Program-made: the position numbers and the translations under genes
Assembly: GCA_951406725.2 (NCBI GenBank)
Contig: OX597815.1
Span: 103,230,001-103,294,000 of the forward strand
DNA: 64,000 nt
From: Octopus vulgaris
Taxonomy: Eukaryota
Direction of reading: 5' to 3'
The notes under the pieces: model-generated
The model's input: the letters and a program-made list of their open reading frames with translations, nothing else
What the model was told of the DNA's origin: nothing
Database searches by the model: none
Part shown: positions 5,801 to 60,078 of the stretch, piece after piece
How the letters are laid out: every line of letters starts with the position of its first letter
How positions within the stretch are numbered: the first letter of the stretch is position 1

Positions 5801-6010
5801 TGTTTTCTCCGTCTCCAGATGTCGTTGTATCACCACAACATTGTGACCGTTGGTTTAGATACACTGTACCAGTGTAGTAATAGTAGACAAGATGACGATG
5901 TAGACGTAATAACAACGTAACGATTGTCATGAGACACTAATCAATATTCCAAACGAACCAACCAACCGACACCTTCTGAATCCACTGCGAACTTAACTCG
6001 TACTAACACT

Positions 6011-7608
6011 GATTCTTTATTTTGGTACTCAGGCCACTAACACAGAGGGGACACTACAAGGACAGACACAACACCACAGTGGGGACAATAAACATAAAAC
6101 GAATGAGTATGCATATTATATAATGATGAAAAATGAAATGGCTGCATGGGCCCCACTCCTCACACAGTAGTACTATTTGAACGTTTGTATACACAGTCTA
6201 GTCACTCTATCTGTTGATCTTTTTTCTTTCCTTAACTATCGTTTTTTTTTTTGCTTCAAATACTTTTTCCTTTCTTTTTTTTCCGCTATTTTACCTTTTA
6301 GCGCCTCATATACGGTTCCAGCTCCAAGAGATCGATTAACGGTGGCGGCTCATTGAACTACACCAACGCAACCGGCTGAGTCAATTCTATCACCGCACAT
6401 ATCTCTAAGTTTCTTATAGGTTTCCCTATCGACCACAATGGCCTTCACACTCTCTGGGTACACGTCATTGGGCAGCTTTACCCTTATGATGTGCTTGAAC
6501 TTTACGACCTTTTTCTCCACCTCCTTGTTGTTAGAATAGGTCACAAAATTCCATTTTTTCTTACTTCCTATCGGTCTTCTCCTTTCTTCCTTTACTACCT
6601 TTCCTATCAAAAGTTCCTCTATACTCTTCTCTGAGTCTGGTACCTTCTCTTTCTCCGTCTCCACTGTACACAGCTTCTCCATCTCATCTTCTTGCAGTTG
6701 AGTTCTTAAGTCTTCCGTCAGTTCACCTGTCATCTTCATACTTGCTCCCTCCTTCTCTGACCCATTGTCACACACCTTAATTATTTGTTCACTTTCCTTT
6801 TCCGTCTCACTTTTATCGTCTTTCTTTCTCTTTACCTCTTTCTTTTCCACATCTACTTTCTTCTTCTTTTTTTTTTTTTTGGTTAGTTGGCGGCGGGGTT
6901 ACCCTACCGCTCCTTCTTTTTCTTTCCACCAGCGTGAATTCTTCTTCATCTGCTTTCTCCTTATTCTCAGCTGCCACTGCCTGTTCGACATTTTCTTCAG
7001 TCTCTCTCTGTTCCTTCCGTGGGCATCTCACCTTCATGTGTCCTTTTTCGCCGCATTTGAAACACACAGGCGGTCTTCCCTCCACCTTCATTCTTAGTGT
7101 AAAACCATCAGGTAACACTATATCCTCTGCTATTTTGTTCAAGTCTTCCACTGTTGCCTGGATTGTTAGCTCCAACCCGTAGGCCCAGTAGTCCAGCTTG
7201 TTTGTCCTGGTTGCCTTCAATATCCTGGCCTCTTCTTCCATGTTGTACATAATGGCCGTCATTAGCCACGCCTCCTCCAGCTCAGGGGGTACCTGACCCA
7301 CCCGAACTCTCGCCACACGTTTGCCGCAATAGGATGGCAGAATAATCCATTATTCATCTTCCTGGGCTCGACCTTTATTACAAAGGTCTCTAATGCTTCT
7401 TTCTCTGCTTCTCTTCCAGTTGCGTCTGCATAGCTGTGGCCGCCCTCTGGCCCCTCTCCATATTCCTCAATGGGAAAATTTACAACACAAAAATTTTAAC
7501 GATATTAACAACAGCAATAATCAACAATAAATCCACGCTCCACTCACAAATATAACTCGACTTCAACAACTCAACTTCAAAAACACCAAAAAACACCAAA
7601 AAACGAGG
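6011..7608 (-). mobile_element. ORF1-only retroposon copy A, TSD ACTAACACT (6002-6010 and 7609-7617)
   Basis: 9-bp direct repeat at the LTR breakpoint. The minus-strand 3' end ...GTACCAAAATAAAGAA is shared with copies B-E, and there is no RT or endonuclease sequence. Confidence 0.85.
6298..7470 (-). pseudogene. ORF1/gag-like protein of copy A (frameshifted)
   Basis: SYADA motif, LPSYCGKRVARVRVGQVPPE, MKVEGRPPVCFKCGEKGHMKVRCP (CCHC knuckle), K/E-rich linker, and a C-terminal domain ending PPLIDLLELEPYMRR*. Confidence 0.85.
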
Positions 7609-7639
7609 ACTAACACTCAAACTTCACTCCAACCGTTAC

Positions 7640-7647
7640 TATTTATA
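7640..7647 (-). promoter_or_regulatory. Putative LTR TATA box (TATAAATA)
   Basis: Conserved in both LTRs of copy 1 (also at 9271-9278) and 30 nt upstream of a TGAGT/TTAGT initiator-like sequence. Confidence 0.55.
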
Positions 7648-7804
7648 ATCGCTCGGTCCAGTCTATTTCTCGCAAGGGGGCGTCGTGACTCTCAACACAA
7701 TATCTCAACTTTTCAGATTTAGACTTACGTAAGAAATGAAATTTATTTTATATTTTACCTTTCCAGCACTTCTCCCTCTCGGTCGCATTTTTTTTTTAGA
7801 AAAT

Positions 7805-8655
7805 TTAATATATTTTTCGTTTTGGCATTATTTCTAAGTGTACAATCTGTTTCCTTTTTCTATTGCTGCTTCTACGAGGCTCAAAGATTTTAGGTGCTGG
7901 CACCTTAAGTATGTTATAGCAGTCTTCCACTTCCTTTCGTTTTTCAGAATGTCTCGCCTCTAAATGGTTTACGTGTCTCTTATGTTTCCAACTTTGTCCT
8001 TTAATCATATGCATCACATTTCCTAATCTTTTAGTTAAAAAACCATCCTCTCAGTCTTCTTTATTATTATAAATTTCAAAATGAACTTTAGCCCTTACTT
8101 TGAAATGTTTTGTTGCCTTTTCTGTATTTCCTTTAAATATACTTTTAATTGAAGATCGATATTAATTTTCGTGCGAGCGCTAACTCTGCCGAAGACTTTC
8201 CTGAAATGGTATTTAGATTGGGCGTTACTCTAGCCTCAAGAATTTAATTAGCACTTCATCATTTCCTACGTCATTCCTTGCTCTATTTTTAACGCTCGCT
8301 CGAAAATATAAACAAATGTTTCTACTTGCCCGTTTGACAGGTGACAGGGTGGGGTAAACATATGCTTTATCGCGTGTATTTTGCAGAAATTCTTGAATCC
8401 ACGACCCGTAAATTGTGTTACATTATCTGATACCAACGTGTCTAGAACACCATATCGAGAAAATAATTCATGCCGTAACATTATTTTTCTCTTTGCCGTT
8501 GGTTTATTGCACTTGAATGCTTCTAACAACAAGTATATAGCATTTGCTGTTTACCGGTCTAGCGTAGTCGATATGAACCATGGATCACGGACTATCCATC
8601 TCAGGCCACGATTGGTATTTCACCGGTTGTGGTTTGGCAGCTAGCGCAAAACCTC
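7805..8655 (-). pseudogene. Gypsy integrase remnant
   Basis: VHIDYARP, LVSDNVTQFTG..FKNFC...IKHMFTPPCH.SNGQVE (rve core), C-terminal WKHKRHVNHL. Confidence 0.85.
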
Positions 8656-8955
8656 TGATGTCACACAGATGGAGCTAACTTTCGAAATAATAACCTTACC
8701 TTTTCTTCGTCCGACCATGTTTTGCAATCTTCCTTTAAAATCCCCTCGTACCTCCTGTAGTACGCGGCAAAAGTTATACCCTCCTCTGGGTTATAACTGA
8801 ATTCCGTCTGGCGAAAACGAAGTTACTGCATTTTCGGATTTAGCGTATAGCTCCAATAATTGTTGTTGTTTTAGTTGTTGCTGAACTAGCTGCTTCTCCA
8901 ACTCCTGTTGCTGTTACTTTTGCAACTGTATTATAGAAGTTAATAGGTCTTCCAT
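8656..8955 (-). pseudogene. Gypsy gag N-terminal remnant
   Basis: MEDLLTSIIQLQK...Q-rich...FSYNPEEGITFAAYYRRYEGIL; homologous to 41440-41759. Confidence 0.7.
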
Positions 8956-9010
8956 AATTTAACAAATTGTATCAGGAACAAATTGTTAAATAACTTACGT
9001 GAGCTTCGAA

Positions 9011-9023
9011 ACCCTCGTCACTA
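9011..9023 (-). other. Primer-binding site (degenerate TGGCGACGAGGGT, tRNA-Ser GCU 3' end)
   Basis: Minus strand reads TAGTGACGAGGGT 5 nt after the LTR end; the intact version is at 41815-41827. Confidence 0.7.
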
Positions 9024-9028
9024 GATAT

Positions 9029-9333
9029 TGTATCCTCCGTCTCCAGATGTCGTGGTATTGCCACGGCATTGTGACCGTTGGTTTAGATACACTGTACCAC
9101 TGTAATAACTGTAAATAAGGTAACGATGCTGGCGTAATAACAACGTAACGATCCAACAATCATTTCACGAACCAACAATCAATAATCCAAACGAACCAAC
9201 CAACCGACACCTTCCGACTTCACTACGAATTCAGATCGAACTAACACACAAACTTCACTCCAAATGCTACTATTTATAATCACTCGGTCCAGTCTATTTC
9301 TCGCAAGGGGGCGTCGTGTCTCTCGTCACAACA
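9029..9333 (-). repeat. 5' LTR of Gypsy copy 1
   Basis: TG...CA termini, adjacent PBS, direct repeat of 5801-7702. Confidence 0.9.
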
Positions 9334-11864: not shown

Positions 11865-13405
11865 CATCAACATCATTACTGTTTAACATCCGTCTTCCAT
11901 GCTGGCATGGGTTGGACGGTTAGACTGAGGACTGGCAAGCCAGAAGGCTACACAAGGCTCCAGTCTGATCTGGCAAGGTTTTTACAGCTGAATGCACTCC
12001 CTAACGCCAACCACTCCGACAGTATAGTGGGTGCTTTTTACGTGCCGCCGGCACGAGGACCAGTCAGGCAGCACTAGTATCGACCACGCTCGAATGGTGC
12101 TTTTTACGTGCCACCAGGATGGAAGCCAGTCAAGCGGCACTGGCATTGACTATGTTCATATGATGCCTTTTACGTGCCAACGCACGAGTGCCAGTCAAAC
12201 TGTAATGGCATCGGCCATGACAATGATTTCACTTGACTAAACAAATCTTCCCAATCACAGCATACTGTCCAATGATTGAAGGGTACTCTTAAATGCGCAG
12301 GTTATGCGACACTGGCGTAGGCCACGACTACCGTCTCACTTGGCTTGCCGGATCTTCTCAAGCACAGCATATCTCAAAAGGTCTCGGTCTCCTGTCATTG
12401 CCTCCTAGACACTCAACGTTCGAAGTCGTGTTTCACCACCTCATTCCATGTCTTCCTGGGTGCACCTCTTCCACAGGTTCCCTCTACTGTTAGGGTGTGA
12501 CACTTTTTCACACAGCTGTCCTCATCTTTACGTAATACATGACCATACCAGTGCAGTCGTCTCTCTTGCACACCACATATGATGCTTCTTACGTCCAACT
12601 TTTCTCTCTGGACGCTTACATTCTGTCGTGTATGCACACTGACATTACACATCCAGCGAAGCATACTAGCTTCATTCCTTGCAATCTTATGCATGTCCTC
12701 AGCAGTCACGGCCCATGTTTCACTGTCGTGTAGCATGGCTGTTTGCACACATGCGTCATACAGTCTACCCTTTCCCTCTGAGCGAGAGGCCCTTGTTACC
12801 TGCAGAGGTAGGAGCTCTCTGAACTTTGCCCAGGCTATTCTTATGCTTGCAGCTACGCCCTTAGATCATCTACACCCGCTACTGACTTGGTCACCTAGGT
12901 AACAGAAGCTATCAACTACTTTTAGTTTCTCCCTCTGGTATGTGATGGAAGCTGTTTTCTGCACATTTTCAGTCTTCATTGCCGCTGTGCCACACACAAA
13001 AACTAACTTTGCAGTTAACATTCCTTTAATATTGCTGCACCTCTTATATGTCCATTACCTACATGGGGTACAGCTTATGGAGTTTCTACCTACGCCTTTT
13101 CTACGGACCGGAGAGGGCATCTATCTGAAGGGACTTGTCATTTGTCTGCCTTCTTATTTACTAATACTTTGGATTTTGCTAGATTCACTCTAAAGCCCTT
13201 CGATTCTAGACCTTGCTTCCACACCTGCAACTTCTCCTATAGTTCTGATAGTGACTTAGCTATTAGAGCAAGGTCATCAGCATTGAGGAGCTCCCAGATA
13301 TATCCTGTCTTGAATCCTTCTGTTATTGACTTGAGGACTATGATAAATAAGAGGGGGCTGAGGACTTATCGTTGGTGGACCTTTACTCGGAATTCTTCAC
13401 TGTTC
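11865..13405 (-). mobile_element. 5'-truncated RTE-clade LINE
   Basis: ELLNADDLAL (degenerate YADD), MLHDSETWA...MLRWMC...RRLHWYGHVLR...RGAPRKTW, 3' UTR and (TGA)n-type tail. Confidence 0.9.
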
Positions 13406-23339: not shown

Positions 23340-25800
23340 TTATGTGGCATTTGGTGACTGGGGGAATTTAATGTTGTTGCCCTTATCTGCATTTGCTACT
23401 GCCAGATAGATTCATCCAGGACTCTTCACAGGAGGAGATCCAGTGTCGTTTTGAAGTACCTATATTCCCCTCAAGTAGGTTTTTGAAGCTAGATATCAGC
23501 CAGCAAGTCATTTTCATCAATGAGCGCAATTAAGTTCGTTCTCACTATTTGTTCCATGACTTTGACGCTATGTGAGGTCAGAGAGCTAGCCCTAGAGATT
23601 TTAGCATTTGCTTTACTTCCTCCTTTACGGATAAGGCATATTCCCTCCCTCAACTTGAAGTTGCAAGGAAGCTCTAAAATAGAAACTGCAGCGGTTTCGC
23701 TCGTTTGATCTGAGAATGCATAAGAACCAGGAGCTGAGTTGCCTCTGCCTCATCTACAGCCAGTAATACATTTTTTCTTTGATGCCGATGTAATGAAATA
23801 TTACCTCTCATTTTTACTTTGATGTCGATGTAATAAAATATTACCTCTCTGGTCACAGTGATTTCATGGATAGGTGCACAGACCTGCATTGGTTTTTCTA
23901 CTTGCATGAGTCCTAACGGGTAGTGAAAACACATTTGAACTGGTTGTTTAGAATTTCTATTTTTCTTGGGTTTCCTACGAGAGCGCCATTCTTTTGGAAG
24001 CGGGGATCTATCTCGTAGTGTACTGAGGCCGTTTCTTTGTCAAAATTAAAGAAAGCTAGATGATTTGACTTAATATTTTTTGTAACCTGGTCTTCTTCAT
24101 ATTCTCTCTCTTTTCTCAACCTCAATCTGTGTTGTTTAAAGGCGCGACTTTCATATGTTTGTTTAGACATTTTACAATCTTTATCCGCTACCTCATAAGA
24201 ACTTTCCCTAGGGATCTCCTTGCGTGAGTTGGTTTTGTGTATAAGTGTAATGGCGTTGTGCATATGTGTGTTGTTTTGTGCATATGCGTTTTGGCCTTGC
24301 AGCACATGGCTTGCATTACGGACATGAAATGTTTAAGTTTCATGTCGATGTCCGCTGCAGAGAGGTATTTAGGCCAATCGTATTTTAGAACAACTTTCTG
24401 AATCAGTTTCCAGTTCAGACTAGAAAGATTTGGGTGTTCATATGCTTTTAGTCTATACATAGTTAAATCCATTGTATTAGGATCCCAGACTAGTGACGGT
24501 GTCACTTTCACATTATGTTTGCTATCCATATTGACTGTAAAGCAGAGATCTAGTATATCATTTGCCCGGCTTAATTACCATGAATAAAGCACTGATAAGC
24601 TTAAGCAGGGATTCCACCTGTATTTGCTGGCGATGTTATTCTTGAAATCATGAGTCCTTCGGACCACTACACATTGAAGTCACCCGGAAGGAAAACACTG
24701 ATGTGCTGTTCCAATTTGGTTAGAATTTATTTTATTTTTCACGGCGGTCTTCAAATTGGCCTACGTTATTTGAAGAATTCAGTGGACGATACGTAGTGCA
24801 TATAACAATATTGAGCGGTCTTATGTATACAATTTTAGTGTCACACACTGAATGAGAATATGACAGCCGGATCTGCGGTGTGAGATCCTCATCGATGTAT
24901 ACTGCAACACTATTGTGGCTCTTTTCTCTTCTGCCCGTTTGTAATACAGTGTACATCTTCTGCCCGTTTGTAATACAGTGTACAGTTTGCGCATTTTTGC
25001 ATCTGCTATATCAGGTCTAAGATTTACTTCCACGAGTCTGCACTTGATGAAGCCAGATCAGCAACTTCACAATCTTTAGAGACATGCACAAAAAAAATGT
25101 TCAGCTGCTGCACTTTTCACATCTGAGTGATACTGGTTGTTTGAAGTAGTACGCACTACGCCAGCATAACACTTTTTAGGAGCAGACAGTGCGGGATATT
25201 TCTTCTTTGGTGCCCCTCCCTTCATTGTTGTTTTTCTGGAAAGAATTTCTGGTTCAAGCCCATGCAATCTCGAATATTCGAAACAGCGATTTGCACCATT
25301 GTCTCCGCTTCAGCCGTTTCCTTGCAGATAAAATCTGCATATGTTTCCACTTCTGTATCTCCTACTTCTTTTGTCCACATTGTCTGATCTTTATTTTTGC
25401 TCCAAAGTTATATTTTCCTTTTATTTTGGTGGTTCCACTGGTAACTTCACATTTGTGCAGCCAATGTTGTTTTTTGTCATTGTTTATCTCCGAAACTTTA
25501 TTTTTAGTTTTTTATTTTCTTCCTTTACTTTTCCTCTTTGTTTTTGGTCTTGATTGTTTGTAGTAGGCTTTGGTTTTTCTTTGATTTATTTTTGTTTTGG
25601 GGCTTTTCCTTTTTCAACCCTCTCATCTCTCTGGCTGTCTAGATTGGTGAGGGCAGAGTTAGTATCATCGGGTTCCATACATTAGCAGGTGACTTCTATT
25701 TTATGATTCATTATCTCCACTTTTATCATCCTTGCTGTAATCGATTCCCAGAATGGCAGCCAGTTTGTTGAAGTGTGACCTCATGAGGGATGGGAACGGA
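23340..25800 (-). mobile_element. Degenerate CR1-like LINE with internal deletion
   Basis: ORF1 CCCH-like CRFYLQG, APE traces (TTYRP, PGDFN, DILDLCF), linker KNIKSN...LNNQFKCVFT, RT start (SLTSH.VKVMEQIVR) joined to the C-terminal FKTTLD..PDE-like block. Confidence 0.75.
24927..24984. repeat. 29-bp perfect tandem duplication inside the CR1 element
   Basis: tcttctgcccgtttgtaatacagtgtaca present twice. Confidence 0.9.
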
Positions 25801-32562: not shown

Positions 32563-32998
32563 AGGCGTAGGAGTGGTTGTGTGATAAGTAGCTTGCTTAC
32601 CAACCACATGGTTCTGGGTTCAGTCCCACTGCGTGGTACCTTGGGCAAGTGTCTTCTACTATAGCCTCGGGCCGACCAAAGCCTTATGAGTGGATTTGGT
32701 AGACGGAAATTGAAAGAAGCCTGTCGTATATATGTATGTATATATATATGTGTGTGCGCGCGTGTGCGCGTGTGTGTGTGTGTGTATATGTGTATGTTTG
32801 TGTGTCTGTTTGTCACCTCCAATATCACTTGACAACCGATGGTGGTGTGTTTACGTCCCAGTCACTTAGCGGTTCAGCAAGAGAGTCCGATAGAATAAGT
32901 ACTAGGCCTACAAAGAATAAGTCCTGGGTTGATTTGCTTGACTAAAGGCCGTGCTCCAGCGTGGCCGTAGTCAAATGTCTGATACAAATAAAAGAATT
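32563..32998 (+). mobile_element. Full-length tRNA-derived SINE with internal microsatellite
   Basis: A-box GTGGTTGTGTGATAAG, B-box GGTTCAGTCCC, body, (TA)/(TG) tract, conserved tail ending AAATAAAAGAA; multiple copies in the window. Confidence 0.9.
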
Positions 32999-34452: not shown

Positions 34453-35292
34453 ATATTGATCATGTAGGAGATGAGGTAACTAAGTAGAGTGGGAATATAA
34501 TGGCAGATCTTCTGATCACAATAACTGCTAATATTTGGAATAGGTTCCAAGTTTCACATAATTAAGGATATGTTACATAGATTTCATCGTGAAAGTAAAA
34601 AGGTACAAATTCCTACTCGTTAACATTCATTATGTTTCCTTACTTGTAACTATTGGTAAGTTATCGTATAAACATTTATTGAGTCGGCTGTAGACATACA
34701 TATGCTTCATCGTTGTCATAGTGATTTGATATTGGCTCAGAACTAATAGTGACACTACAGATATAAACAAATTTCCATTGGTCCAGCAACGAAAATGTCT
34801 CACATTGAGAATGGAAAGATCTCGAGAAAATCTACAAAACCTTCTGTTGCAACGTAATTTGTTACGTACAATAAATATGATAACCAGACAACAGTAAAAA
34901 CAATGTAACGAACTAGTAAATCTCTTTACGAACTAACAATCAATATTCGTTGTGAACTAACGAACCGACACCTTCCGACTTTACTGCGAACTTCACTCGA
35001 CTAACACGAAAGTCACTCGACTTTGAACTCTTGAACTCACTCGAATCTTTAATATATTTTACTCAGACTAATCTATCTCTCACAAGGGGGCGTCGTAATT
35101 CTCATCACATCATCACTCCTTTTGAGATTTCAACGACTATGAGAAAGTGGAATTTCTTTTCATTTTTCCTTTCCAGCAACTCTCCACCCCTTTTTCGTAT
35201 CTTAATTGTTGCCCGACTTTTAAGGTAATATTGTTCGTTAAACACAGTACTTTTTCTTCCCGTTGTACTAAGCACACTTGTTGGCACACTTG

Positions 35293-35626
35293 ATTGAAAG
35301 AACTATTTGGAGATATGAAGAATTTATATCCTTCATAAATGGTAATAGAGGAGTCGTTTAAAAGGATAAAAAGAGAAATAGACTTTTTAAAAATGGGAAA
35401 AAAGATGCAAAAAGAAAAAAAAGGTGTTTAAAAAATTATATAAATTAACACTTAAGTGGTACTGCTTGAGAGTTGGACATAATGCAGCCATTTCAACATC
35501 GTCGATTTCATTATACATTTTTTTTCATTGTTTTCATTCGTTTTATGTTTTTTGTCCCCGCTGTATTGTTGTGTCAGTCCTTGTGCTGTCTCCTCTGTGT
35601 GAATGGTCGCAGTACCAAAATACAGA
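35293..35626 (+). mobile_element. ORF1-only retroposon copy B (5'-truncated)
   Basis: Closely matches 37050-37437 of copy C. Confidence 0.85.
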
Positions 35627-35633
35627 GAGAGTC

Positions 35634-37438
35634 ACCTCGCAACTTTTCGGTTGTTGGTGTTGGCTTCGTTAAACGTGAGTTAAATTGTTACATACTGTTA
35701 TTGTTACACTCTGTTATTATATATTGTTGTAGGTCTCCCCGCCCAGGTGAACCAAGATTCGTTAAATTGTTAAATTGTTGAATTCTCTCGCTGCTTTCGC
35801 CTATTTTGGAGATTGTTTCTTCACTAGTTATTGGTGAAGTGGTGGAAGGAGGCGAAATAGTGCGTGTCGCAAGTTATGCATCCGCAACTATTCAAGATAC
35901 TACGACCAACACCCTTGAAGTTCGCGGAATAAAAGTAGACACAAAGGAATGGGAAAAAGGAAATAAATTGTTACAAAAGGAAGGGGCCGTTATAAAGCTG
36001 ACCCCACCAGAAGTGACGAAGAATGTAGCTAGGAAAACGGTTGTGTGCAGGACGTTATCAACTACTACCAAAATAATAGATATTGCCCTAAGAGAGGCAA
36101 TTAAGGAATAACTTCGTGACGTGAAAGGACTAAGCACCTTCTATACACGTGGAAGAAAATACGGCACTGTGGAGGTTAGGTTCTCCAGCGAGGAGGACGC
36201 TATTAACTACTCCGCTGAGCCGATAGGACACAAGATTGGGTGCTGCTGCCGACATACTGTGATAAACGTGTTGCCAGAGTGATAGACCCCTGATATCGAA
36301 GAGGCATGGCTGTTGGTAGCAGTCATGCACAGAATGGATGCAAATGCAAGGATTCATTCTGGAGATAACTAGACCGAAGAAAGTGAATTAGTGGGAGTAC
36401 GGCCTAGAGATAGCGATTGAAGTTATGTTAAAAGACCAACACGTAATTGTAGAAGAGATTCTTCTACTAGAAGACATTACGTTAAGAGTGGTAGTGAAGG
36501 GAAGACCTCCAACATGTTTTCTATGTAAACAAAGAGAGCTCATGAAGGTAAGGTGCCCTCAGCAAGAAAGTAAAGTAGAGGAACAACACGAAGGACAACC
36601 CGCCTAAGAGGAGGGGCCGGAGAAAAGGGAAATACAGAGGAGTCAGTTACTGTCGTAAATAGGCGAAAGAGGAAAGAGCGGGTGAGCTCTCCGCCAGAGA
36701 GCCAAAAAAGAATGAAGGAAATAGAGGAGAAAATAGAGAAGGCCCCGGAAACTGGACAGATATAACAGTAGAGGTAGCGTAACATAGAGCGGAAGACATA
36801 ATCGTGGATGATTATTCTAATGTACAGATGGAGGAACCAAGGGAAACGACTAACCCGGACGGTTCCGGTCCGGAGCATAAACAAGTAAATAGGAATAAGA
36901 AAAAGTGGCATGTATTCACATGTGAAAAGCACCGCCATAGAGCGGAATATAACGAAGTTTAAAGGTGCCGTAAGGATTCAACTGCTAGCAGAAAGGTACC
37001 CGGAACACATCAAATGTGTGGTGATTGACAAGGAAAGGTATTGAAGACCGAAAGAACTATTTGGAGATGAGGTGAACCATTTGAAGGAAGAGATTGAATT
37101 TGAGTAAGTACCAAAAGTAGTTAAATATGAAGAACTAATACCCTTAATGCATGGTAATAGAGTCCTTTAAAGGGAAAAAAAGGGAAATAGACTTTTTTAA
37201 AAATGGGGAAAAAAACATGCAAAAAGAAAAAAAATCTTTCAAAAATTGTATAAATTGACAGTTAAATGGTACTGACTGAAAGTGGTGCTCAATGCAGCCA
37301 TTTCAACATCATCAATATCATCATTCATTTTTTTCTTATTTTTTCATTCGTTTTATGTTTTTTGTCCCCACTGTGGTGTTGTGTCTGTTCTTGTGCTGTT
37401 CCCTCTGTGTGAATGGTGGCAGTGCCAAAATAAAGAAA
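35634..37438 (+). mobile_element. ORF1-only retroposon copy C
   Basis: 5' UTR, decayed ORF, 3' UTR ending AATAAAGAA (37429-37437); flanked by GAGAGTC (35627-35633 and 37441-37447). Confidence 0.85.
35806..37170 (+). pseudogene. ORF1/gag-like protein of copy C
   Basis: SYASA, RGRKYGTVEVRFSSEEDA, LLPTYCDKRVARV, RVVVKGRPPTCFLC......KVRCP, and IERNITKFKGAVRIQL..ERYPEHIKCVVIDKERY. Confidence 0.85.
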
Positions 37439-37453
37439 GTGAGAGTCGGTGAG

Positions 37454-39137
37454 CCTGTAAAGAACGGTGTTTCTCTATGTTAAATCACTTCTGATTCTGG
37501 TACAGATAAGTTAATTTTTGTCGAGGGTTTACCTAACGGGTTTACCCATTGTTACAACTGTTGAGCTATTGTTGACTAATTGTTGTACTGTTTTACTTGT
37601 TTTTGCTTTCTCTTCCATTCAGGGCGAAAATAGTATTTAGCTATAGAAGTGGTGCAGGTACCCAAGCAAATACAAGCCGGGCGCTACGTGTCTGTAGCAA
37701 GCCGCGAAAATGTTACAGCTACTGTTAACCTGCTGGAAGTGGAAGAAGTACGTGTGGATTTGGATATTTTCAAGAGGAGCAAGGATTTAATTCAAAGAGA
37801 GGGGTTAAGGCTAAAGCTGACTCCCTCTGAAGATATTACAAAAATGAAAAATAAGAAAATGGTGGTTTACAGAACGTTGTCAGTCAAGAGCAAGAAAATA
37901 GAGATGGCATGTGAAGAAGCCAGAGAGGAGAGCCTGAGAGAAATTAGGAATGATATCGAATTTTTTGTAGAGGAAGAAGATTCGGTACAGTGTAAGTGTG
38001 TTTTGCTACCGCAGAGTAGGCAATAAAGCACTCCACTTCAACACTAAGAACGGATGAATGGGCATTCTTGCCAACCTACCTCGGTAAACGAGTGGCGAGA
38101 GTAAAGATCGGCAGGGTGCCCCCTGAGATAGCCAAGTTGTGGCTGCTTGCCATAATTTTGGTGGGGACAAAAGAGGACCCAAAAATACTGCAAGTGACTC
38201 GGACGAAGCAAGGAAACTGGTGGGAATTTGGCCTGGAAGTTGTAATCCAGGCCATCTCACAGGACATGGAAGAAATTGTAGAGGAAATTGAGCTGCCAGA
38301 AGAAGTGAAGCAGCGAGTGGTAGTGGAAGGGAGACCTCCCACCCGCTACTACTGCAGAAAGAGGAGGCACATAAAGGTGAGCTTCCCCCTTTTAAAAAAG
38401 TGGAAAGTATAGACGAAATGTTCTAGTAGGTACAAAGCAGAAAGGGAAAGGGACTAAAAACTTCATCCCCAGCCCCCGAAGAACCTAAACAAAAAGAAAA
38501 AGAAAGAAACAAGTAACACACAAGCACCCATTACACAGGAAGAAATATAGAAAACATACTCACACAGTCTACCATACCGCTGTAAACACCCAAGAAAACC
38601 ACAAATATCCCTAAATACCCAGAGTCCCCAGTTAAATATACACCAACACAAGCAGACACACAAACCTCAAAGGCCAGTCACAAAAATATGTCATGAGACG
38701 ATCACGGCCATCGAGAGAAACATTTCAAAAAGGAAATCAACAGTAAGAGTCAAAATGTCTGAAGAGTACTACCCAACAAACATAAAGATTATACTAATAG
38801 ATATGGACAGGTACAAAAAACTAAACGAAAATCTGGGAAATGACATAGACCCATTGGGACCTGAAGTGAGATGCAACTCTCTACCTCCAGTGATAGAATA
38901 TGACAACTTGAAACCATACATGATCCGATAAAGTAAGTTTAGATTTGATTTTAAATCGATAAACATTTAAGAAAAAATAGTAAAATGGTACTTCGCGTGA
39001 GTGTGTCTCGAGTAGCCATTCCACCTTCATTAATTATATAATTCATTTCATTCATTCGTTTATGCTTCATGTCCCCACTTTGTTGTATGGCCTTGTGCTG
39101 TACCCTCTGTGTTGGGCCGACGTGGCAACTAAAGAAA
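37454..39137 (+). mobile_element. ORF1-only retroposon copy D
   Basis: Flanked by GAGTCGGTGAG (37443-37453 and 39140-39150); same 3' terminal block as the other copies. Confidence 0.85.
37649..38931 (+). pseudogene. ORF1/gag-like protein of copy D
   Basis: RGRRFGTV..CFATAE, LPTYLGKRVARVKIGRVPPE, RVVVEGRPPTRYYCRKRRHIKVSFP (decayed knuckle), and IERNISKRKSTVRVKMSEEYYPTNIKIILIDMDRYKKL...PPVIEYDNLKPYMIR*. Confidence 0.85.
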
Positions 39138-39139
39138 TT

Positions 39140-40010
39140 GAGTCGGTGAGTTGTGTAAAGCCGAGAGTTGCGTATTGTCGTAATTACAAGTAATTACAAG
39201 TATCTTGAGTAGAACGATTGGCGATGACGTTATTATCCATTATATCGTACGTCGAACGTGCGCTACAAGGGAAATACGATAGAATGATTTTCAGCGGACA
39301 GTGTTGCGAACTCCATCGAAGAATTTTAGTACCAACCGGATGAAGGAACTACCTTTACTGCGTATTACAGACGATACGAGGACAGAATTGTGTCTCGATG
39401 AAACGATACATATTTTGACTAATATTTTTAACGAACAAAGTGGGAATGTTTCAATTTTAAAATAAATGGGTCCGACGATTTGTAACATATGCCGGTATTG
39501 TTAATAAGGCTTGTGAAAGGTTTAAGCTTCAAGAATTAACGCCAGATATGTTTAAGTGCGTAATATTCGTTAAAGGGCTTGTGGTAACGGAAGACGCGGA
39601 AATTAGAAAAAGAATATTATTAGAGTTGAATAAAGATGTTGAACTAACTTTGCAGAAAGTGGCTGAGGAATGCCAACAAATAATAAACCTTCGAGAAGAT
39701 ACAAAAAAATAAATGATGATGATGATGATGATGATGATGATGTACAAACGTGTAAAGAAAGTATTGAAAGACAAAAAAGACATAAATCCAAACCTAAGCT
39801 ATGGTTGCGGAAACCTGCATTTTAAGAAAGAATGCCCTTTTAAATATTAAAAAGGTCTTAAGTGCGGTAAAACTGGGCATAAACAGTCAAAATGGTGGTT
39901 GAAGAAATATGCAAAAAATGAGAAACCGAAGAAAGTCTAATCAACAAAAATAAATTACACCATCGAAAACCAAAAATTTGTGTCGGTAAAGATAAACGGT
40001 TTTGTCGAAG
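39140..40010 (+). mobile_element. Plus-strand Gypsy fragment: possible LTR end, PBS-like TGGCGATGACG (39219-39229) and gag remnant
   Basis: FKCVIFVKGLVVTEDAEIRKRILLELNKDVELTLQKVAEECQ plus two CCHC-like knuckles (GCGNLHFKKECP, KCGKTGHKQSK). Confidence 0.75.
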
Positions 40011-40011
40011 A

Positions 40012-41759
40012 CCGATTTTTCTTCTGTGAACATTAACTCTGTTGATGACTTTCCTGAATTAGTATTTGGATTTGGCGTTATTTATATACTCTCAAAAATT
40101 TCGTTAGTACGACGTCATCATTTACCTTACTCCTAGCTTTTCCTAGAACTTTTTTGAATGTGTCGTCAAATCATTCTACCTGACCATTTGTCCTCAGGTG
40201 GTAGGGCGAGGAAAAGATGTGCTTTATGGTATGTATTATGCAGACATTTCTTAATTCATATCTCGTGAATCGTGTTCCATTATCTGAAAATAACGTGTCT
40301 GGAGCACGATATTCGGCAAGAAATTCGAATAGGAACATTATTGTTGTCTTTGCTATGGGTTTATTACATCTGCATACCTCTGGCCGCTTTGTATAGACAT
40401 TCACAATGATTAGATAGTGTGCATCGTTCATTGGCCCAGCATAGTCGATATATATCTTGGACCGTGAGCTCCCAGTCTTTGTGTATAGACTTAGTTTGTC
40501 TGAGAGTACTTGCGGAAACATTAAAAACAATTCCCTTTAACTCTTCAGACGAATTATTTTTAGAGGGAGAAACATTTACGTTTTTGAAATAGCGATTTAT
40601 GGGGAGGTCCCATAAATCGAACAATTCTAACCAATCGGTACTAAACATATCGGTTGCATTTTTAACGACGAAGACTTTCGCCTTGCATGTTTTACCCTCT
40701 ATGTCCATATTTCGCCTATGAAATGTAATTTATCGTCCGTCACACTACGAGCAGATTTCGCTGTTTTTCTCAATACAGGTTTCCCTATTTTCTTCTATGT
40801 TTCCATATTTACTATTGAAATATCACTTCTAGTATCCAATTTTAATATGTATTCCACTTATTTTTACGTGTACGAATTCTTTTATTTGGGAATCGATTTA
40901 TGCCTCTGCTGCGAGAATACTAGGATTTTAGCATCTGACCTTCGTAATTTTGTTCTGAAATATGAACTCTTGTGACCATTTCTTTTGTAAATGTAGCATT
41001 TTTGATTTTTAAATGGACAGCTGTTTCTGAAATATATATGCCAACATCCATAACATAGATTAGGACGTAGCGCTCTTCTTTGGCTGTACTTTTCTGGTCG
41101 GCATATCTGTATTTTTGATAATCGTTTTCTTGAATTTTTTCAACATTGTCTTTCAAATTTATCATTCTATTGCATTCTTCTACCAAGAACTGTAAAATTA
41201 GATCTTGACACTTGAACATCTCAGGTGCATGTTTATTGAGTTAAGAACTTTTACACATCCTGTTGACACTTCTTGCGTATGTGATAAAATCATCATTCTC
41301 TGTTTTCAGTACATTGCAAAACTCCATTCGAGTGTTAGAGATGTTTGTTATCATCGAATATGTTAAACAGTAATTGTTTTGCTTCTTTAAAACAAAATTT
41401 CATTGGATGTTTTTGGCAATATGAAATTACAGTAGCCTTCATGCCGTAACGGAGCTAATTTTCGCAATAACACTTTCACTTTTTGTTCGTCCGACCATGA
41501 TTTCCAATATTGCTCAAAAATTTTCTCGTACCTTCTGTTGTACGATAGAAAATACACTCCTCTGGGTTATAATTGAATTCATTAATCGAGTTCGAAACGC
41601 CGTCTAGCTAAAATAAACTTCAATTTTGGACTTGTTTGAATATACCTCCAATAATTGTTGTTGTTGTAGTTGTTACTGTGATAGTTGCTACTGCAACTCC
41701 TGTTACCGCTCTTGTGGTTGCTTTTGCAACTATACTATGGAAGCTAATAGGTCTTCCAT
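40012..41759 (-). pseudogene. Gypsy gag-protease-integrase remnants with RT and RNase H missing
   Basis: KVFVVKNATDMFSTDWLELFDLW (protease end) joined at about 40490 to IYIDYAGP...SDNGTRF...SSPYHLRTNGQVE. Confidence 0.85.
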
Positions 41760-41814
41760 TATTTAACAAGTTGTATCATGAAGAATGTTTTAAATAACCT
41801 ACGTGAGTTTCGAA

Positions 41815-41827
41815 ACCCTCGTCGCCA
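41815..41827 (-). other. Primer-binding site TGGCGACGAGGGT (tRNA-Ser GCU)
   Basis: Complementary to the ...ACCCUCGUCGCCA 3' end of metazoan tRNA-Ser(GCU); 5 nt from the LTR end. Confidence 0.8.
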
Positions 41828-42459
41828 GATATTGTAACGTAATTTGTTACAATAAGTAAAATAACCAGACAACAGTAAAAACAATGTAACGATCTAACAA
41901 ATCTCTTTACAAACCAACAATCAGTATTCGTTGTGAACTAACTCCAAACTGATATGAAAGCGTATTTCAACTAAAATAATATTCTGTCAGATTCGATCCC
42001 ATTGGCCAATGGTGTTGTGTTAACTATGGGGATATACCAGCACCAATTTCGTTCTCAATATACCTCGTAGTGAGAATCGATCATGCATGTCAAGAGTTTT
42101 ATCAAAACTTCTTCGTCAACTATTGCGTAATTGGTAAACTAGAGTTCGCTATTGATTACTTTCTGATGATTGTATCATTCTGGCCCACTCTTAACATGAT
42201 ATTAAAAAAAAACAATGGTCCCTCTTCTAGTAACTGTACTTCTTTTGTAAGATGATGCTTACACTTGCTCTAGGAGAAACGGACGTGAAAGCAAATATAC
42301 TTTGACAAGAGACCAGATAAGATGTAATAGATTCTTTTGTATTTCTCGAAAGATTTTACCTCCAGAGATGGATATCTTGAATCTAAAATCAAATTTGCAC
42401 AAGACTCTCTAAAAAAAGATTTGTTGCACGCTCTCGCTCTCTCTTTCTGTATGTGTGTC

Positions 42460-48282: not shown

Positions 48283-49835
48283 ATCCAACGTTTCCGATTC
48301 AATCCTTCGTCAGAGAAGAAAGAGAAAAATTCAAACAGAGTTTACATCCTCTCATCTTGAAAAGCTGGCTGCAGCTGATAATGGACGCTGGATCACACGG
48401 GCTACTAACGTGAACCAGAAGATATAGGAGGGCGCATGCAGAAAGGGGAAGTGAAAGGATGCGGAGAGAGTAGAAGTAAGTAAATAGGGGAATGTTACAG
48501 AGAGATTGTGGGAGCAGGATTAAAAAGGGTTAAAAAGAATTAAGAGAGGGTGAAAGGATGAAAGGAAAAACGTTCATTCATATTGGTTGTGGACATAGTG
48601 CCAAGATCAAATATGAGACTTTTCTCCATTCTTTTCTAGAGAATGGGGATCCGAGGTGCAAGGCCATATCACACACTGATAAATCTGAAATAGAATGATT
48701 CACAGTGTTGAAGTGGGTAGTGACAGGTTGGCCTGGTATACGAAGCATTATGCCTCTGATGTGTTCGTAAATGCGATTTCCAAAGCGTCGCCCTGTGTCT
48801 CCAATTTAAAGAGCACTGCAGATTTTCCATATGATGCAATATATCAGATTCGCCGAAGTGCAACCGAAGATGTGTGTTATGAGATATTGCTTCTTGGACC
48901 CCGTGATGGTGGTAATATTGTTTATGTAGGGACATGTTATAAATCGTCAGTGATAACATTAAAATGATCCGGGTTGTGCGAAGCTGGGAGCTGTGAAGCT
49001 TCTAACAAGGAGATCTCTAAGACTCCTATCTTTTTTAAAAGACAGGAAATATGGTGTGGAAAAGATAGGGGTACTTGTTAGGTCAGAAAAAAGAATGCGA
49101 AGTTGTGGGTGAGTTTGTGCTTTAGAGGGAGGATGGACGGGTGAGAAAGAGTGGAATGCGGTCGGTGGAAGTGCATGAAGATGGTAGGAGATCTGCAGTG
49201 CGGTTGATGGCTTGGGCTTGGCGGAGTGCCGGATCGACAACTAATGGAGGATACCCCTCGATTTAGAAACAAAGTCGTCGAAGGCGAAAACGTCGAGAGA
49301 AAGGTATAGTAGATTTAATGTGTTTAGGATAAGAGGAAGGGTAGTAGAGGCAGGACTGGAGGTCGGTGGGTTTATAGTAGACAAAGGTGGAGAGGTGGGT
49401 ATTGTGTATTTTGATGGAGATGTTAAGAAAGCAAGCAGAAATATCAGATATGGTGTGGGTGATTTCCAAGGCCGGGTTAAAGGTGTTGACAAAAAAAATC
49501 GTTTAGTTGTTGTTTGTTAAGGCTTGTAACGCCAATACAGTCGTCAATGTAACGACCATAAAATTCTGGGATGGATCCAGGGAAGTGAGCAAAGATTTGC
49601 TCCTGCACATAACCTACAAAGAGGTTGGCATAATTAGGGCCCATCCAGGTGCCCATAGCAACACCGCAGAGGTGCTTATAGAATTCACCAGAGAAGGAAA
49701 AACAATTGAGTGTTAAGACGAGCTCAGCTAGGTGGTGGAGTGTATTCGTGCTGGGTTCAAGTATAGAACGACGGTATAAGAAGTATTTAAGTGCTAGTAG
49801 ACCGTCATTGTGAGGAATAACTGACTACAAAAAGT
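48283..49835 (-). mobile_element. 5'-truncated Penelope-like element (RT C-half, GIY-YIG endonuclease, terminal repeat with minimal hammerhead)
   Basis: AMGTWMGPNYANLFVGY, RYIDDC, VYYKPTD, IYCI.....AL.IGDTGRRFGNRIYEHIRG; CTGACGA...GAAACGTT at 48287-48313. Confidence 0.9.
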
Positions 49836-52624: not shown

Positions 52625-52752
52625 TTCAGGTTTTGGCACAAGTCTAGTGCTTTTAGAGGAGGGCGTTAGTTAACTACATCGACCCAATATCCTGCTGGTA
52701 CTTATTTAATCGGCCTCAGAATGATGAAAAACAAAGTCGACTACGGCGGAAT
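52625..52752 (-). mobile_element. CORE-type SINE fragment
   Basis: Minus strand ATTCCGCCGTAGTCGACTTTGTTTTTCATCATTCTGAGGCCGATTAAATAAGTACCAG resembles the CORE domain. Confidence 0.6.
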
Positions 52753-53615
<863 letters not shown>

Positions 53616-53695: not shown

Positions 53696-53932
53696 TAATA
53701 TCATCATCATCATCATCATCATCATCGTCTTCATTACTACCATTACTATTATTTTATTCTTTTATTTGTTTCAGTCATTTAACTGTGGCCATACTGCAAC
53801 ACCCCCCTTTAGTCGAACAAATCAACCTCGGGCTTAATCTTTGTAAGTAGTCTCTTTTGCTGAACCTATAAGTTACGGAGATGTAAACACACCGACCAGC
53901 TGTCAAGTGATGGTGGGGAAAGAAATGCAACC

Positions 53933-53977
<45 letters not shown>

Positions 53978-54148
53978 AACACACACACACACATACACAC
54001 ACAAACACACACACACACACACACACATATACATATATACTCTTTCATTTTCCACTCACAAGGCTTTGTTCGGCCCAAAGCTATTACAAAAGAGACCGGC
54101 CCAAGTGGGACTGATCCCAGAACCATGTGGTTAGGAAGGAAGCTTCTT

Positions 54149-55540
54149 TATTTCAATATTTTTCCATGAAGGTTTTACATAGAGGGGACACTACAACACG
54201 TGGGGATATATAACAATTAAAAATATATGAAAATAAAATATGATATTATGAATGACACATGAAAATGAACATGAGAAAGAAATTAAAATTATGATAACAT
54301 GCGTAATAGTTGAAAATGAAAATTTGAAGAGTGTGCTACTCATCCCTCACCGTGCAACACCACTCGATGTGTCTGAGTCCTAAGTTCCTTTTAGTCTCTG
54401 TTCCAGTTCCGCTATCGCTCCATGACTGCACTCTCTCGTAACCTTTTCCATCGGGGAAGGGGTCTTCTAAATTCTGAGGTGTCTGCCTTTTTTTCTTCTT
54501 TCCTGTGGGGAAATGAGGTGGGTGGATTTGTTGTCTGTATGGGGGGGGGTTCAGAGTGGTTTTGAGTAGGATGGAGTTGGACTAGGGTACCACATCACAC
54601 TCAGTTTTCTTCCTTCTACTCTCTGTTACTCTCCGTTCTTCCTCTTTGTTCTCCTTTCCTCCGTCTGTCTTCTTCCTCTCTTTTCTCTTCCGTCTCCACA
54701 ACTGTTTCCTCTGCTTTTGTCCTCTGTAGAGAGCAGCATGCGCTAATGTGGCCCTTTTGGCTACATTTAAAACAATGTGGTACTCTGCCCTCTACCCACG
54801 CTCTCAGCACAATTTTCCCCAACGTCACCGTCTCTGTCAAACTCTCCAGTTGTTCCCTCCTCCGCCTGTATAATTAGTTCTAGTGTGTTCCCTTCCCCCC
54901 CTGTTTCTGTGGCTTGAAGGACAGCCACCTTCACATCGCTTCCAGCAATTACAGTCGTTGCCACCAAGCTACATCTATATCAGGTGGGATTGCTCGACCA
55001 TTACCTTGAAAGATTTTCTTCCAAGGTATGTGGGCAGAAGCACTACCTCCTCTGCTTTCATCTCCTCGCATCCTCTATTGTCGTAAATCGGACGACCATT
55101 GTCCCATATCTCCATCCTTTAGTTATGTATGTTATTTCCTTTGACTGCTCCTTTAGCGTCTTTTGCATTTCAGCTTCCACCTGCTCGGCCTTTTTTCCCT
55201 TTTAACGAGAACACCTTATAAGTGATCGTTTTTCTCTCCATTCACTCCATAATTCCTTTTGGGTGGAGGCAACCTCACGTCGCCGCCCACTTTCTGTACC
55301 ATCTTCTCATACTCCTTCAGACCAGCTAAAGCCAACTCCCTTCGCTTCATCTCCATGGCCTCAGCAAAACTCCTTGTCTTTTCCAACACTCCGTCCATCT
55401 TTATGACCGCCTTTACCAGCTCGTCCTCTGCTAAAGACAACTCAGAACCGTTAAGGTCTGAATACATTTTCTAAGCAACCCGAAAAACACCGTCCGACTC
55501 TCAACAAATTCACACAACAACTGCTGGATAACGCATGCGT
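54149..55540 (-). mobile_element. ORF1-only retroposon copy E, 15-bp TSD
   Basis: GGAAGGAAGCTTCTT (54134-54148) and GGAACCAAGCTTCTT (55541-55555); 3' block TTGTAGTGTCCCCTCT...AATAAAGAA. Confidence 0.8.
54380..55467 (-). pseudogene. ORF1/gag-like protein of copy E
   Basis: RSFAEA, YGTMVVRFTTIEDA, LLPTYLGRK, LRAWVEGRVPHCFKCSQKGHISACC; the true stop is uncertain. Confidence 0.8.
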
Positions 55541-56504
55541 GGAACCAAGCTTCTTACCATACAGCCACGCTGTGCCTATCATCACTATTAATATTATTCG
55601 TTTATTTTATTTTCCACTAACGAATACTCCACAGAATTATTGTTACAGGCTCAATAATTCATGCTCTACCACCTTCTTTGTAATTGTAGAGTCAAAGAAA
55701 TCCATCCAGTTCTACTTTATCTTTCATAGGAAATAGAAATATTGTGATACAAGAAGTGGATTAAGAGTCAAAGTTGATTTGTTAAGTTTGAGAATAAAAG
55801 TGTGGTCATACTAAAATTTGCAGCTATACAGGTTGTGTGAGATACATAAAAGGAGAACAATACGAAACGTTTTCCAAGGGTAAAGAAATTATATACGACA
55901 AACTAAAAGTATTTAGGAGGATCATTTCATTCTTTAGCTGTTTAATTCCAGGTGAGTTCTAAAGGAGTATACCTCTGGCTTTTGTTTCCGATGCTGTCTT
56001 AAACGCCATCTATTTTTAAAAAGGTGGGACGGAATTTAAGGGGGAATTGGTGGCTATTTCTGCCTCGTAGGTGATCAAATAGCAGTTCGCTCACTAACGT
56101 GCTTGGAGTTCTGATGTGGAATATTTACACATCGTGGGAGGTCGTTGGAATAGTTACACAGTAGAAAAAGTGTTTGGGCCACATTCTTATAAGAATATAT
56201 AACATTTAAGGGTAGTAGATGAATACAGCTACTCTATTTTATTTTCAAATCTGACATATCTATGACAACGTTATTTAATGTGTTCTTCAAGTTTTTAAGA
56301 CGCGATGATATGACTTAACATAGATTAAGCGAATTATTTTTAGATGGGCCACCACGTACAGATTTAGTTATCGGATTCTTTATAGCATTTTGCTTGATTC
56401 AGATGGAAAAATATTCTTGTATCTAAACTCATAACGGGACAATACACACACACGCGCGCGTGCATATGAATATATTTTTGTGTGTGAATGTGTGTCTTTG
56501 TGTG

Positions 56505-59664: not shown

Positions 59665-59855
59665 TTTCTTTCCTTTTCTTTTACTTGTTTCAGTCATTTG
59701 ACTGCGGCCATGTTGGAGCACTGCCTTTAGTCGAGCAAATCGATCCCGGGACTTATTCCATCGATGTCTTTTTGCCGAACCGCTAAGTTACGGAGACGTA
59801 AGTACACCAGCATCGGTTTTCAAGCAATGCTAGGGGGACAAACACAGACACACAA

Positions 59856-59923
<68 letters not shown>

Positions 59924-60078
59924 ATATACACGACAGGCTTCTTTCAGTTTCCGTCTACCAAATCCACTCACAAGGCATTGGTAGGCCCGGGGCTATAGCA
60001 GAGGACACTTGCCCAAGATGCCACGCAGTGGGACTGAACCCGGAACCATGTGGTTGGTTAGCAAGCTACTTACCACTT
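59665..60078 (-). mobile_element. Near full-length tRNA-derived SINE with internal (TA)/(CA) tract
   Basis: Reverse-complement homologue of 32563-32998. Confidence 0.9.

What the first reader, a model, noticed from the sequence alone, without database searches (positions are those of the whole stretch)
35293..39137. Family of ORF1-only (RT-less) retroposons, five copies in 64 kb
Seen in sequence: copies at 6011-7608(-), 35293-35626(+, 5'-truncated), 35634-37438(+), 37454-39137(+) and 54149-55540(-). The four long copies each carry one decayed ORF with an S[YF]A.A-like start, RG..[YF]GTV.V.F (deleted in A), LP[TS]Y.G[KR], VEGRPP.CF.C...GH....CP and a charged linker. A UTR of about 200-300 nt then leads straight into a shared terminal block (TTCATTCGTTT..TGTCCCCAC..TTGT.GTGTCCCCTCTGTG..AATAAAGAA), with no RT, no endonuclease and no poly(A). 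Four copies have flanking direct repeats. Established: RRM plus CCHC is the Tx1/L1-type ORF1p layout, and ORF1-only 'half-L1' (HAL1) elements are known in mammals. Inference: A, C, D and E are strongly diverged yet keep the same one-ORF plan, so this looks like a long-lived parasitic lineage that supplies its own RNA chaperone and borrows ORF2p. I do not know of such a family described in cephalopods.
Basis: partly seen in the sequence, partly recalled or inferred. Interest (0 to 1): 0.82.

Follow-up and report, generated by a model that had tools for sequence, protein, structure and literature searches.

The report
Octopus ORF1-only half-LINE retrotransposons
Five decayed copies of an octopus jumping gene carry only a predicted RNA-binding gene, sit inside other repeats, mostly between short duplicated ends, and likely borrow their copying enzyme from a complete relative; such half elements are known from mammals and insects, and this is an octopus version with an extra protein domain.

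Summary
There are five related insertions (A-E). Four are long, with one decayed ORF running straight into a shared 3' block and no room for an endonuclease or RT. Target-site duplications are verified against empty sites for A and E and are exact for D. C's is short, and B has none. Three corrections. (2) E has only part of the 3' block. (3) All five sit in other repeats: A in the 3' LTR of a Gypsy-type element, exactly 30 nt behind its TATA box; B-C-D stacked before another LTR remnant; E in a SINE. The ORF diverged under purifying selection, has a predicted RRM-like fold plus one zinc knuckle, and has about 350 relatives; all named ones are octopods. Best reading: non-autonomous ORF1-only LINE derivatives moved by a Tx1-like helper. 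The helper was not seen, because no genome is held. The class is known (HAL1, HeT-A, Ag-Sponge); I found no octopod or Tx1 case in print. This scan has already noted the same kind of element many times on other DNA of this genome. New variant of a known kind.

The parts
6011..7608 (-). Copy A, ORF1-only element (1598 nt), internally deleted in the first RRM-like region
6298..7461 (-). Decayed ORF1 of A: S-Y-A start, second RRM-like domain and knuckle (7349-7014), charged linker, C-terminal domain (6583-6304)
6002..6010 (-). 3' copy of A's 9-nt target-site duplication
7609..7617 (-). 5' copy of A's duplication; its first base is 30 nt after the first T of the TATA box
7640..7647 (-). TATAAATA in the host LTR, upstream of A
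   Evidence: chance 0.0046
5801..7700 (-). 3' LTR of an internally deleted Gypsy-type element, split by A
9029..9330 (-). 5' LTR of the same element: empty site with one copy of the target, followed by a primer-binding-site-like word
35293..35626 (+). Copy B: last codons of the C-terminal domain, UTR and 3' block; 87% identical to C over 308 columns; no duplication
35627..35633 (+). 5' copy of C's 7-nt duplication (10 nt with one mismatch, 35624-35633)
   Evidence: by eye
35634..37437 (+). Copy C (1804 nt): decayed ORF1 about 35860-37168, C-terminal domain 36910-37152, UTR 269 nt
37438..37453 (+). Overlapping 3' duplication of C (37441-37447) and 5' duplication of D (37443-37453)
37454..39139 (+). 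Copy D (1686 nt): decayed ORF1 about 37682-38931, C-terminal domain 38647-38922, UTR 208 nt
39140..39150 (+). 3' copy of D's 11-nt duplication
39140..40005 (+). Host remnant after D: 3' part of an LTR-like stretch, primer-binding-site-like word near 39217, decayed gag-like frames
   Evidence: gag and PBS labels from recalled motifs
54149..55546 (-). Copy E (1398 nt): divergent ORF1 with knuckle (54855-54715), no C-terminal domain, reduced 3' block
54140..54148 (-). 3' copy of E's 9-nt duplication; overlaps the terminal AATAAAGAA word by 5 nt; host SINE continues to about 53757
55547..55555 (-). 5' copy of E's duplication, inside the SINE head

Best explanation
These are non-autonomous non-LTR retrotransposons that encode only an ORF1-type protein and are likely copied by the endonuclease-reverse transcriptase of a full-length, probably Tx1-type, LINE that would recognise their shared 3' block. 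Shown: one ORF (predicted RRM-like domains, one CCHC knuckle, charged linker and, in A, C and D, a conserved C-terminal domain), a 200-290 nt UTR, a shared 3' end, and insertion as a unit with 7-11 nt duplications inside other repeats. Inferred: the RNA is coated by its own ORF1p, recruits the helper ORF2p in trans through the 3' block, and is copied by target-primed reverse transcription at sites the helper's endonuclease prefers. Each insertion rebuilds the target, which explains the B-C-D stack. A, C and D belong to one old lineage that lands at AGTG-type sites near LTR starts; E is a second lineage that lands in a SINE head.
For: Units of 1.4-1.8 kb are bounded by duplications, with empty sites for A and E. 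There is no RT or APE motif and no room for one. A, B, C and D share a UTR motif about 170 nt before the end as well as the terminal block, although their ORFs are only about 60% identical in DNA. Codon-position identity is 0.60/0.73/0.38 for A-D (149 codons), 0.60/0.72/0.41 for A-C (133) and 0.63/0.69/0.37 for C-D (248), with pS 0.76-0.80 and pN 0.32-0.34. The A-D gap of 0.35 between positions 2 and 3 exceeds all 2000 neutral simulations (maximum 0.24). zf-CCHC matches at E 3.9e-5. The model of A's core has beta-alpha-beta-beta-alpha-beta order (pLDDT 69), and its best structural matches are mostly RRMs (best Z 7.9, rmsd 3.0, 84 aligned). There are 350 relatives at E<=0.001; 17 of 30 looked up carry names, all octopod. 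None of 52 scanned relatives has an endonuclease or RT domain. Eight fetched proteins end on the same terminal motif as A, C and D. O. vulgaris has 13 recently active L1-Tx1 families averaging about 5.4 kb per insertion (PMC13282606 Table 1). Tx1 families that prefer LTR elements, and tandem insertions around a shared duplication, are described (PMC4494074).
Against: No helper was found: none lies in the window and no genome is held. Selection on ORF1 could date from autonomous parents rather than from the ORF1-only stage. Contigs laid on A were short; none spans the element, so ORF-to-tail continuity in other genomic copies was not measured. Gene models rarely fuse ORF1 with ORF2, so one search is weak evidence. 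Structural Z under 8 may reflect a common fold only, and Foldseek gave no match at E<=0.001. No sequence link to any named Tx1 ORF1 outside octopods was found. All five copies are dead; no RNA or activity was shown.
Confidence: 0.78

Rival explanations
1. Several independent ORF2 deletions from different autonomous Tx1 families, each amplified only briefly; the deep divergence and the selection belong to the full-length parents.
For: HAL1 arose several times independently (PMC5753468). The 50-130 nt right after the stop does not align among A, C and D. E differs in domain content, tail and target. D and E fall outside the starred group that holds A and C.
Against: A-D keep the same ORF end, a similar stop-to-end length and the same UTR motif. 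B and C share the same junction at 13% divergence. This rival still makes them ORF1-only mobile elements and changes only their history.
Confidence: 0.3
2. Dead full-length LINEs that lost ORF2 after insertion, or by template jumps during insertion, and never moved as short units.
For: All copies are decayed. A and B carry further internal deletions, so deletions do occur.
Against: Four of four long copies would need a clean loss of the whole ORF2 with ORF1 end and tail intact. B and C share the same junction. Duplications flank the short units.
Confidence: 0.07
3. Gag-only derivatives of an LTR or tyrosine-recombinase element, or processed copies of a host RRM-zinc-knuckle gene.
For: The single knuckle resembles nucleocapsid proteins only weakly (E 0.11). 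Four copies lie in LTR sequence, and relatives are annotated as Octopus genes.
Against: There are no terminal repeats or primer site of their own; the LTRs are hosts, since the empty LTR lacks the element. There is no poly(A). Hundreds of divergent relatives share the 3' design, and some gene models span two copies or fuse with a host gene (P0007, P0028).
Confidence: 0.05

Closest known systems
HAL1 (half-L1) of mammals (PMC5753468, PMC5786205; passages read)
   Same: Non-autonomous LINE derivative that encodes only ORF1p and depends on an autonomous partner.
   Different: HAL1 comes from the L1 clade. Mammalian L1 ORF1p is type II (Transposase_22; PMC5203782); here it is type I with one knuckle and an extra C-terminal domain. 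There is no poly(A), and the copies land in other repeats.
HeT-A (Jockey clade) and Ag-Sponge (CR1 clade) (PMC5786205, passage)
   Same: ORF1-present non-autonomous LINEs. HeT-A forms head-to-tail arrays (recalled; PMC5537684 and PMC13534243 seen as search listings only).
   Different: Other clades and hosts. The copies here are interstitial, with duplications, and stack inside transposons.
Tx1-clade LINEs that target other transposons: Xenopus Tx1 in Tx1D, crocodilian Tx1-Mar and its SINEU-3 passengers, Tx1-8_Crp and Tx1-4_AMi in LTR elements (PMC4494074, passages and section 15)
   Same: Insertion into other repeats including LTR elements, tandem copies around a shared duplication, and passengers that share the helper's target.
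   Different: Those Tx1 elements encode ORF2, and SINEU encodes no protein. No protein-coding passenger and no landing at a transcription start is described in the passages read.
Octopus vulgaris L1-Tx1 families (PMC13282606; parts 1-2 of 3 and a term search of the supplement)
   Same: Likely source of the helper: 80 consensus families, 13 recently active.
   Different: No ORF1-only form is mentioned. The consensus library on Zenodo could not be seen and may hold these elements unlabelled.

Membership tests
ORF1-present non-autonomous LINE (class of HAL1, HeT-A, Ag-Sponge) | Encodes an ORF1-type protein | tested here: met
   zf-CCHC E 3.9e-5; RRM-like model
ORF1-present non-autonomous LINE (class of HAL1, HeT-A, Ag-Sponge) | No ORF2 between ORF1 and the 3' end | tested here: met
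   4 of 4 long copies; UTR 208-288 nt in A, C, D; no motifs
ORF1-present non-autonomous LINE (class of HAL1, HeT-A, Ag-Sponge) | Moves as a unit (dispersed copies, duplications, empty sites) | tested here: met
ORF1-present non-autonomous LINE (class of HAL1, HeT-A, Ag-Sponge) | 5' and 3' parts derive from an identified autonomous LINE | not testable with these tools
   No genome held; no helper in the window; 3' block pattern absent from metagenome and viral contigs
HAL1 proper | Mammalian L1-type (type II, Transposase_22) ORF1p | tested here: not met
   No such Pfam match; knuckle present instead
HAL1 proper | Poly(A) tail (L1 trait; its use for HAL1 is recalled) | tested here: not met
   Ends are AATAAAGAA-like with no A run
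Tx1 clade | RT phylogeny within Tx1 | not testable with these tools
   The elements have no RT, and the helper was not found
Tx1 clade | Type I ORF1p (RRM plus CCHC) | tested here: met
   the type is not exclusive to Tx1 (PMC5203782)
Tx1 clade | Sequence similarity to named Tx1 ORF1 proteins | tested here: inconclusive
   Only octopod hits; the word index limits reach
Tx1 clade | Target preference (over 20% of flanks in one repeat type, PMC4494074) | tested here: inconclusive
   4 of 5 copies in LTR-like sequence that covers about 1.7% of the window, but B, C and D are one stack, so there are only 3 independent sites
LTR retroelement derivative (gag-only) | Own terminal repeats and primer-binding site | tested here: not met
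   No direct repeat beyond the duplication; flanking LTRs are hosts

The most novel reading that the evidence does not exclude
An octopod-wide radiation of promoter-seeking half-LINEs. The A/C/D lineage inserts at RNA polymerase II start sites (TATA+30, here in an LTR), is transcribed from the promoter it lands on, and uses its family-specific C-terminal domain to dock on the helper's ORF2p or the initiation complex. That would be start-site targeting by a protein-coding passenger of a LINE.
Probability: 0.2. Interest if true: 0.8.

Novelty: new variant of a known kind. Interest (0 to 1): 0.5.

Why it matters
It would add a fourth LINE clade and a new phylum to the short list of protein-coding LINE parasites. 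It supplies many natural subfamilies with which to ask why a passenger keeps ORF1 under selection, and it shows that dozens of 'CCHC-type' Octopus gene models are transposon ORFs. If landing at start sites holds genome-wide, it is an insertion rule worth testing biochemically and a route by which these elements could alter host promoters.

Tried and rejected
No whole genome is held. The 3' block pattern gave 0 matches in metagenome and viral contigs. No RNA holder was listed among 24 runs, which is no evidence on expression. Summed contig depth over the 3' block of A was far above that over the ORF, but the tool says depth cannot rank parts, so it is not used. Rfam at gathering threshold gave 0 matches in the window. 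The consensus fold of the 3' UTR of A-D gave a weak stem at the shared motif with 1 of 24 pairs compensatory, so it is not claimed. The C-terminal domain model was poor (pLDDT 57, 3 sequences) and matched nothing (Foldseek none; best Z 4.1; Atlas no usable hit; no profile match to the RRM core). My guess from the sequence pattern that it is a third RRM is unproven. The Atlas search of the first RRM-like region gave only leads under 0.9 (RRM_1, PRE_C2HC). The PDB sequence search gave only weak knuckle matches. The tblastx shuffle control returned no hits at all and was replaced. The tree used 30 of 36 rows (6 dropped for poor trimming), did not converge, and is a rough guide only. The bacterial promoter scan does not apply. 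B and C show no A-to-G bias (8 vs 5). Bao and Jurka 2010 is not held and was seen only as a citation. Ten paper searches found no ORF1-only element in cephalopods or in Tx1. Repbase, Dfam and the Zenodo library could not be searched.
Full report
Observation. Translated pieces of A, C, D and E find each other. Five of six pairs score far above shuffles (85-297 against maxima of 49-58, 30 shuffles each), while D-E does not (58 vs 54). B is 87% identical to C's 3' end over 308 columns. No APE or RT motif lies in any of the five, and only 288, 269 and 208 nt separate the ORF stop from the end in A, C and D. The host is an octopod by inference: 17 of 30 looked-up relatives have names, 9 from O. bimaculoides, 4 from O. 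vulgaris, 3 from O. sinensis and 1 from Argonauta hians.

Insertion as units. A has a 9-nt duplication, D an 11-nt one and E a 9-nt one. C has 7 nt exact, or 10 nt with one mismatch, read by eye, because the script found the tail shared by B and C instead. B has none. In a tight null, 3 of 3000 random pairs reach 9 nt and 76 of 3000 reach 7 nt. In a wide null, 83 of 2000 reach 9 nt, so the empty sites carry the weight. A's flanks match the uninterrupted LTR at 9029-9330 with one copy of the target, and E's flanks match two uninterrupted SINE copies. Contigs join 6001 to 7609 with 8 ambiguous letters in 4 of 4 runs; these may be any copy of that LTR family. E's duplication overlaps its terminal AATAAAGAA by 5 nt, as expected if the RNA end pairs with the nicked target (inference).

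The protein. The knuckle passes Pfam in A (E 3.9e-5). A model of A's second domain (7 sequences, pLDDT 69) has beta-alpha-beta-beta-alpha-beta order. Its structural neighbours are mostly RRMs (best Z 7.9, rmsd 3.0, 84 aligned), though Z under 8 is not decisive and Foldseek gave nothing at E<=0.001. The first RRM was not folded; it rests on sequence pattern and weak Atlas leads. RRM plus CCHC is type I ORF1p, consistent with but not exclusive to Tx1 (PMC5203782, passages). A profile of the last 95 residues of eight relatives hits A, C and D at E 2e-20 to 4e-26 and does not hit E; 13 of 154 fetched proteins match it, the eight seeds included. Its fold is unresolved. The profile search found 350 proteins at E<=0.001 among 50%-identity representatives (the two longest listed are unrelated knuckle repeats), so the family is large and diverse. 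None of 52 scanned has an endonuclease or RT domain, which is weak evidence.

Selection and age. In-frame segments show identity of 0.60/0.73/0.38 at codon positions 1/2/3 for A-D, with like values for A-C and C-D. Synonymous sites are saturated and pN is about 0.33. The A-D gap is larger than in all 2000 neutral simulations. This shows that the ORF diverged as a working gene, but not whether ORF2 was already gone. For early loss: A-D share the ORF end, the stop-to-end length and a UTR motif about 170 nt from the end. Against it: the spacer just after the stop does not align, and HAL1 arose repeatedly (PMC5753468, passages). In a rough tree, A pairs with an O. sinensis protein inside a starred group with C and O. 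bimaculoides proteins, while D and E lie elsewhere (30 of 36 rows, not converged). The two LTRs around A differ at 14.4% of 291 columns. At the rate cited in PMC13282606 that is about 22 million years, an upper bound for A's insertion.

Targets. A lies in the 3' LTR of an internally deleted element whose interior matches a neighbour with an integrase domain (rve, E 4.2e-8); the Gypsy label rests on recalled primer-site and gag motifs. The first base of A's duplication is exactly 30 nt after the first T of TATAAATA, and 0.46% of window positions have TATAAA at -28 to -32. I looked for this after a lead from an earlier scan note, and it is one case. B, C and D are stacked in front of an LTR-like remnant with a primer-site-like word and gag-like frames. 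The upstream half of that LTR is missing, so TATA spacing cannot be tested there. The 3' junctions of A and C share AGTGNNAGT, a word found 18 times on both strands of the window, so plain sequence preference explains A as well. D's nick is 5 nt further on. E lies in a SINE head at an unrelated word with no TATAAA at -30. In one search, 20-27 contigs per run leave A at 6106 into other T-rich sequence, and variant 3' ends diverge at 6038-6047, so further families share the block. One joint in one run shows a 3' end followed by another copy's UTR.

Mechanism. Shown: one-ORF units with a common 3' end, inserted with duplications inside other repeats, with a selected ORF of RRM-knuckle type. Inferred: ORF1p coats its own RNA, a full-length helper's ORF2p binds the 3' block, nicks its preferred site and primes reverse transcription, and the duplication regenerates the site so that later copies stack. 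Candidate helpers exist in print: 13 recently active L1-Tx1 families in O. vulgaris, 421 insertions over 2.29 Mb, about 5.4 kb each by my division (PMC13282606). Not seen here: the helper, a transcript, an intact copy, or ORF-to-tail continuity in copies outside the window.

Comparison and verdict. ORF1-present non-autonomous LINEs are named from the L1, Jockey and CR1 clades (PMC5786205, passages). Tx1 families that prefer transposons, LTR elements included, with tandem passengers, are described (PMC4494074). These elements work like HAL1 but fail its defining ORF1 type and tail, and Tx1 membership cannot be tested without RT. Ten searches found no cephalopod or Tx1 ORF1-only family. The octopus LINE paper PMC9115989 (passages) does not mention Tx1. 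Repbase, Dfam and the Zenodo library were not visible and may already hold consensus sequences. Earlier notes of this scan report the same kind of element in SINEs, Helitrons, ribozyme repeats and at TATA+30, some beside an autonomous partner; these are unchecked AI notes, not support. This window adds LTR hosts with an internal empty-site control and an age bound, and the C-terminal domain that separates A/C/D from E. Verdict: real, new variant of a known kind, interest 0.5.

Noticed in passing
window 5801-9330 (-): Internally deleted Gypsy-type LTR element with both LTRs (14% apart); a short non-autonomous form of the element at 34847-41945.
   Followed up: partly
window 34847-41945: Minus-strand Gypsy-type element (integrase remnant 40171-40536) interrupted by a plus-strand block made of B-C-D and a fragment of a different LTR element that lacks both ends; looks like a rearrangement that also cut B.
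   Followed up: partly
window 6159 and 6032 (run X2): A contig shows one copy's 3' end followed directly by another copy's 3' UTR at a GAG(A/T)G-like word: possible self-nesting.
   Followed up: no
window 37454-37462 and 39151-39160: D's first bases resemble the target sequence that follows its 3' duplication (TGTAAAG in both), as if its 5' end carried host sequence from an earlier landing.
   Followed up: no
P0007, P0006, P0028 (O. bimaculoides gene models): P0007 spans the end of one copy and the core of the next; P0006 seems to join an E-like core to an A-like tail; P0028 fuses a copy with an RGS host gene. Many 'CCHC-type' Octopus models are transposon ORFs.
   Followed up: partly
window 12413-12865(-), 49477-49824(-), 52670-53107(+), 23913-24574(-): Decayed fragments that look like other non-LTR or Penelope-like RTs (weak RVT_1 and zf-RVT scores for two); none carries the 3' block.
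   Followed up: no
window 32586-32997, 53757-54148, 59676-60071: Three copies of an abundant SINE; one is E's host and two are empty at that site.
   Followed up: partly
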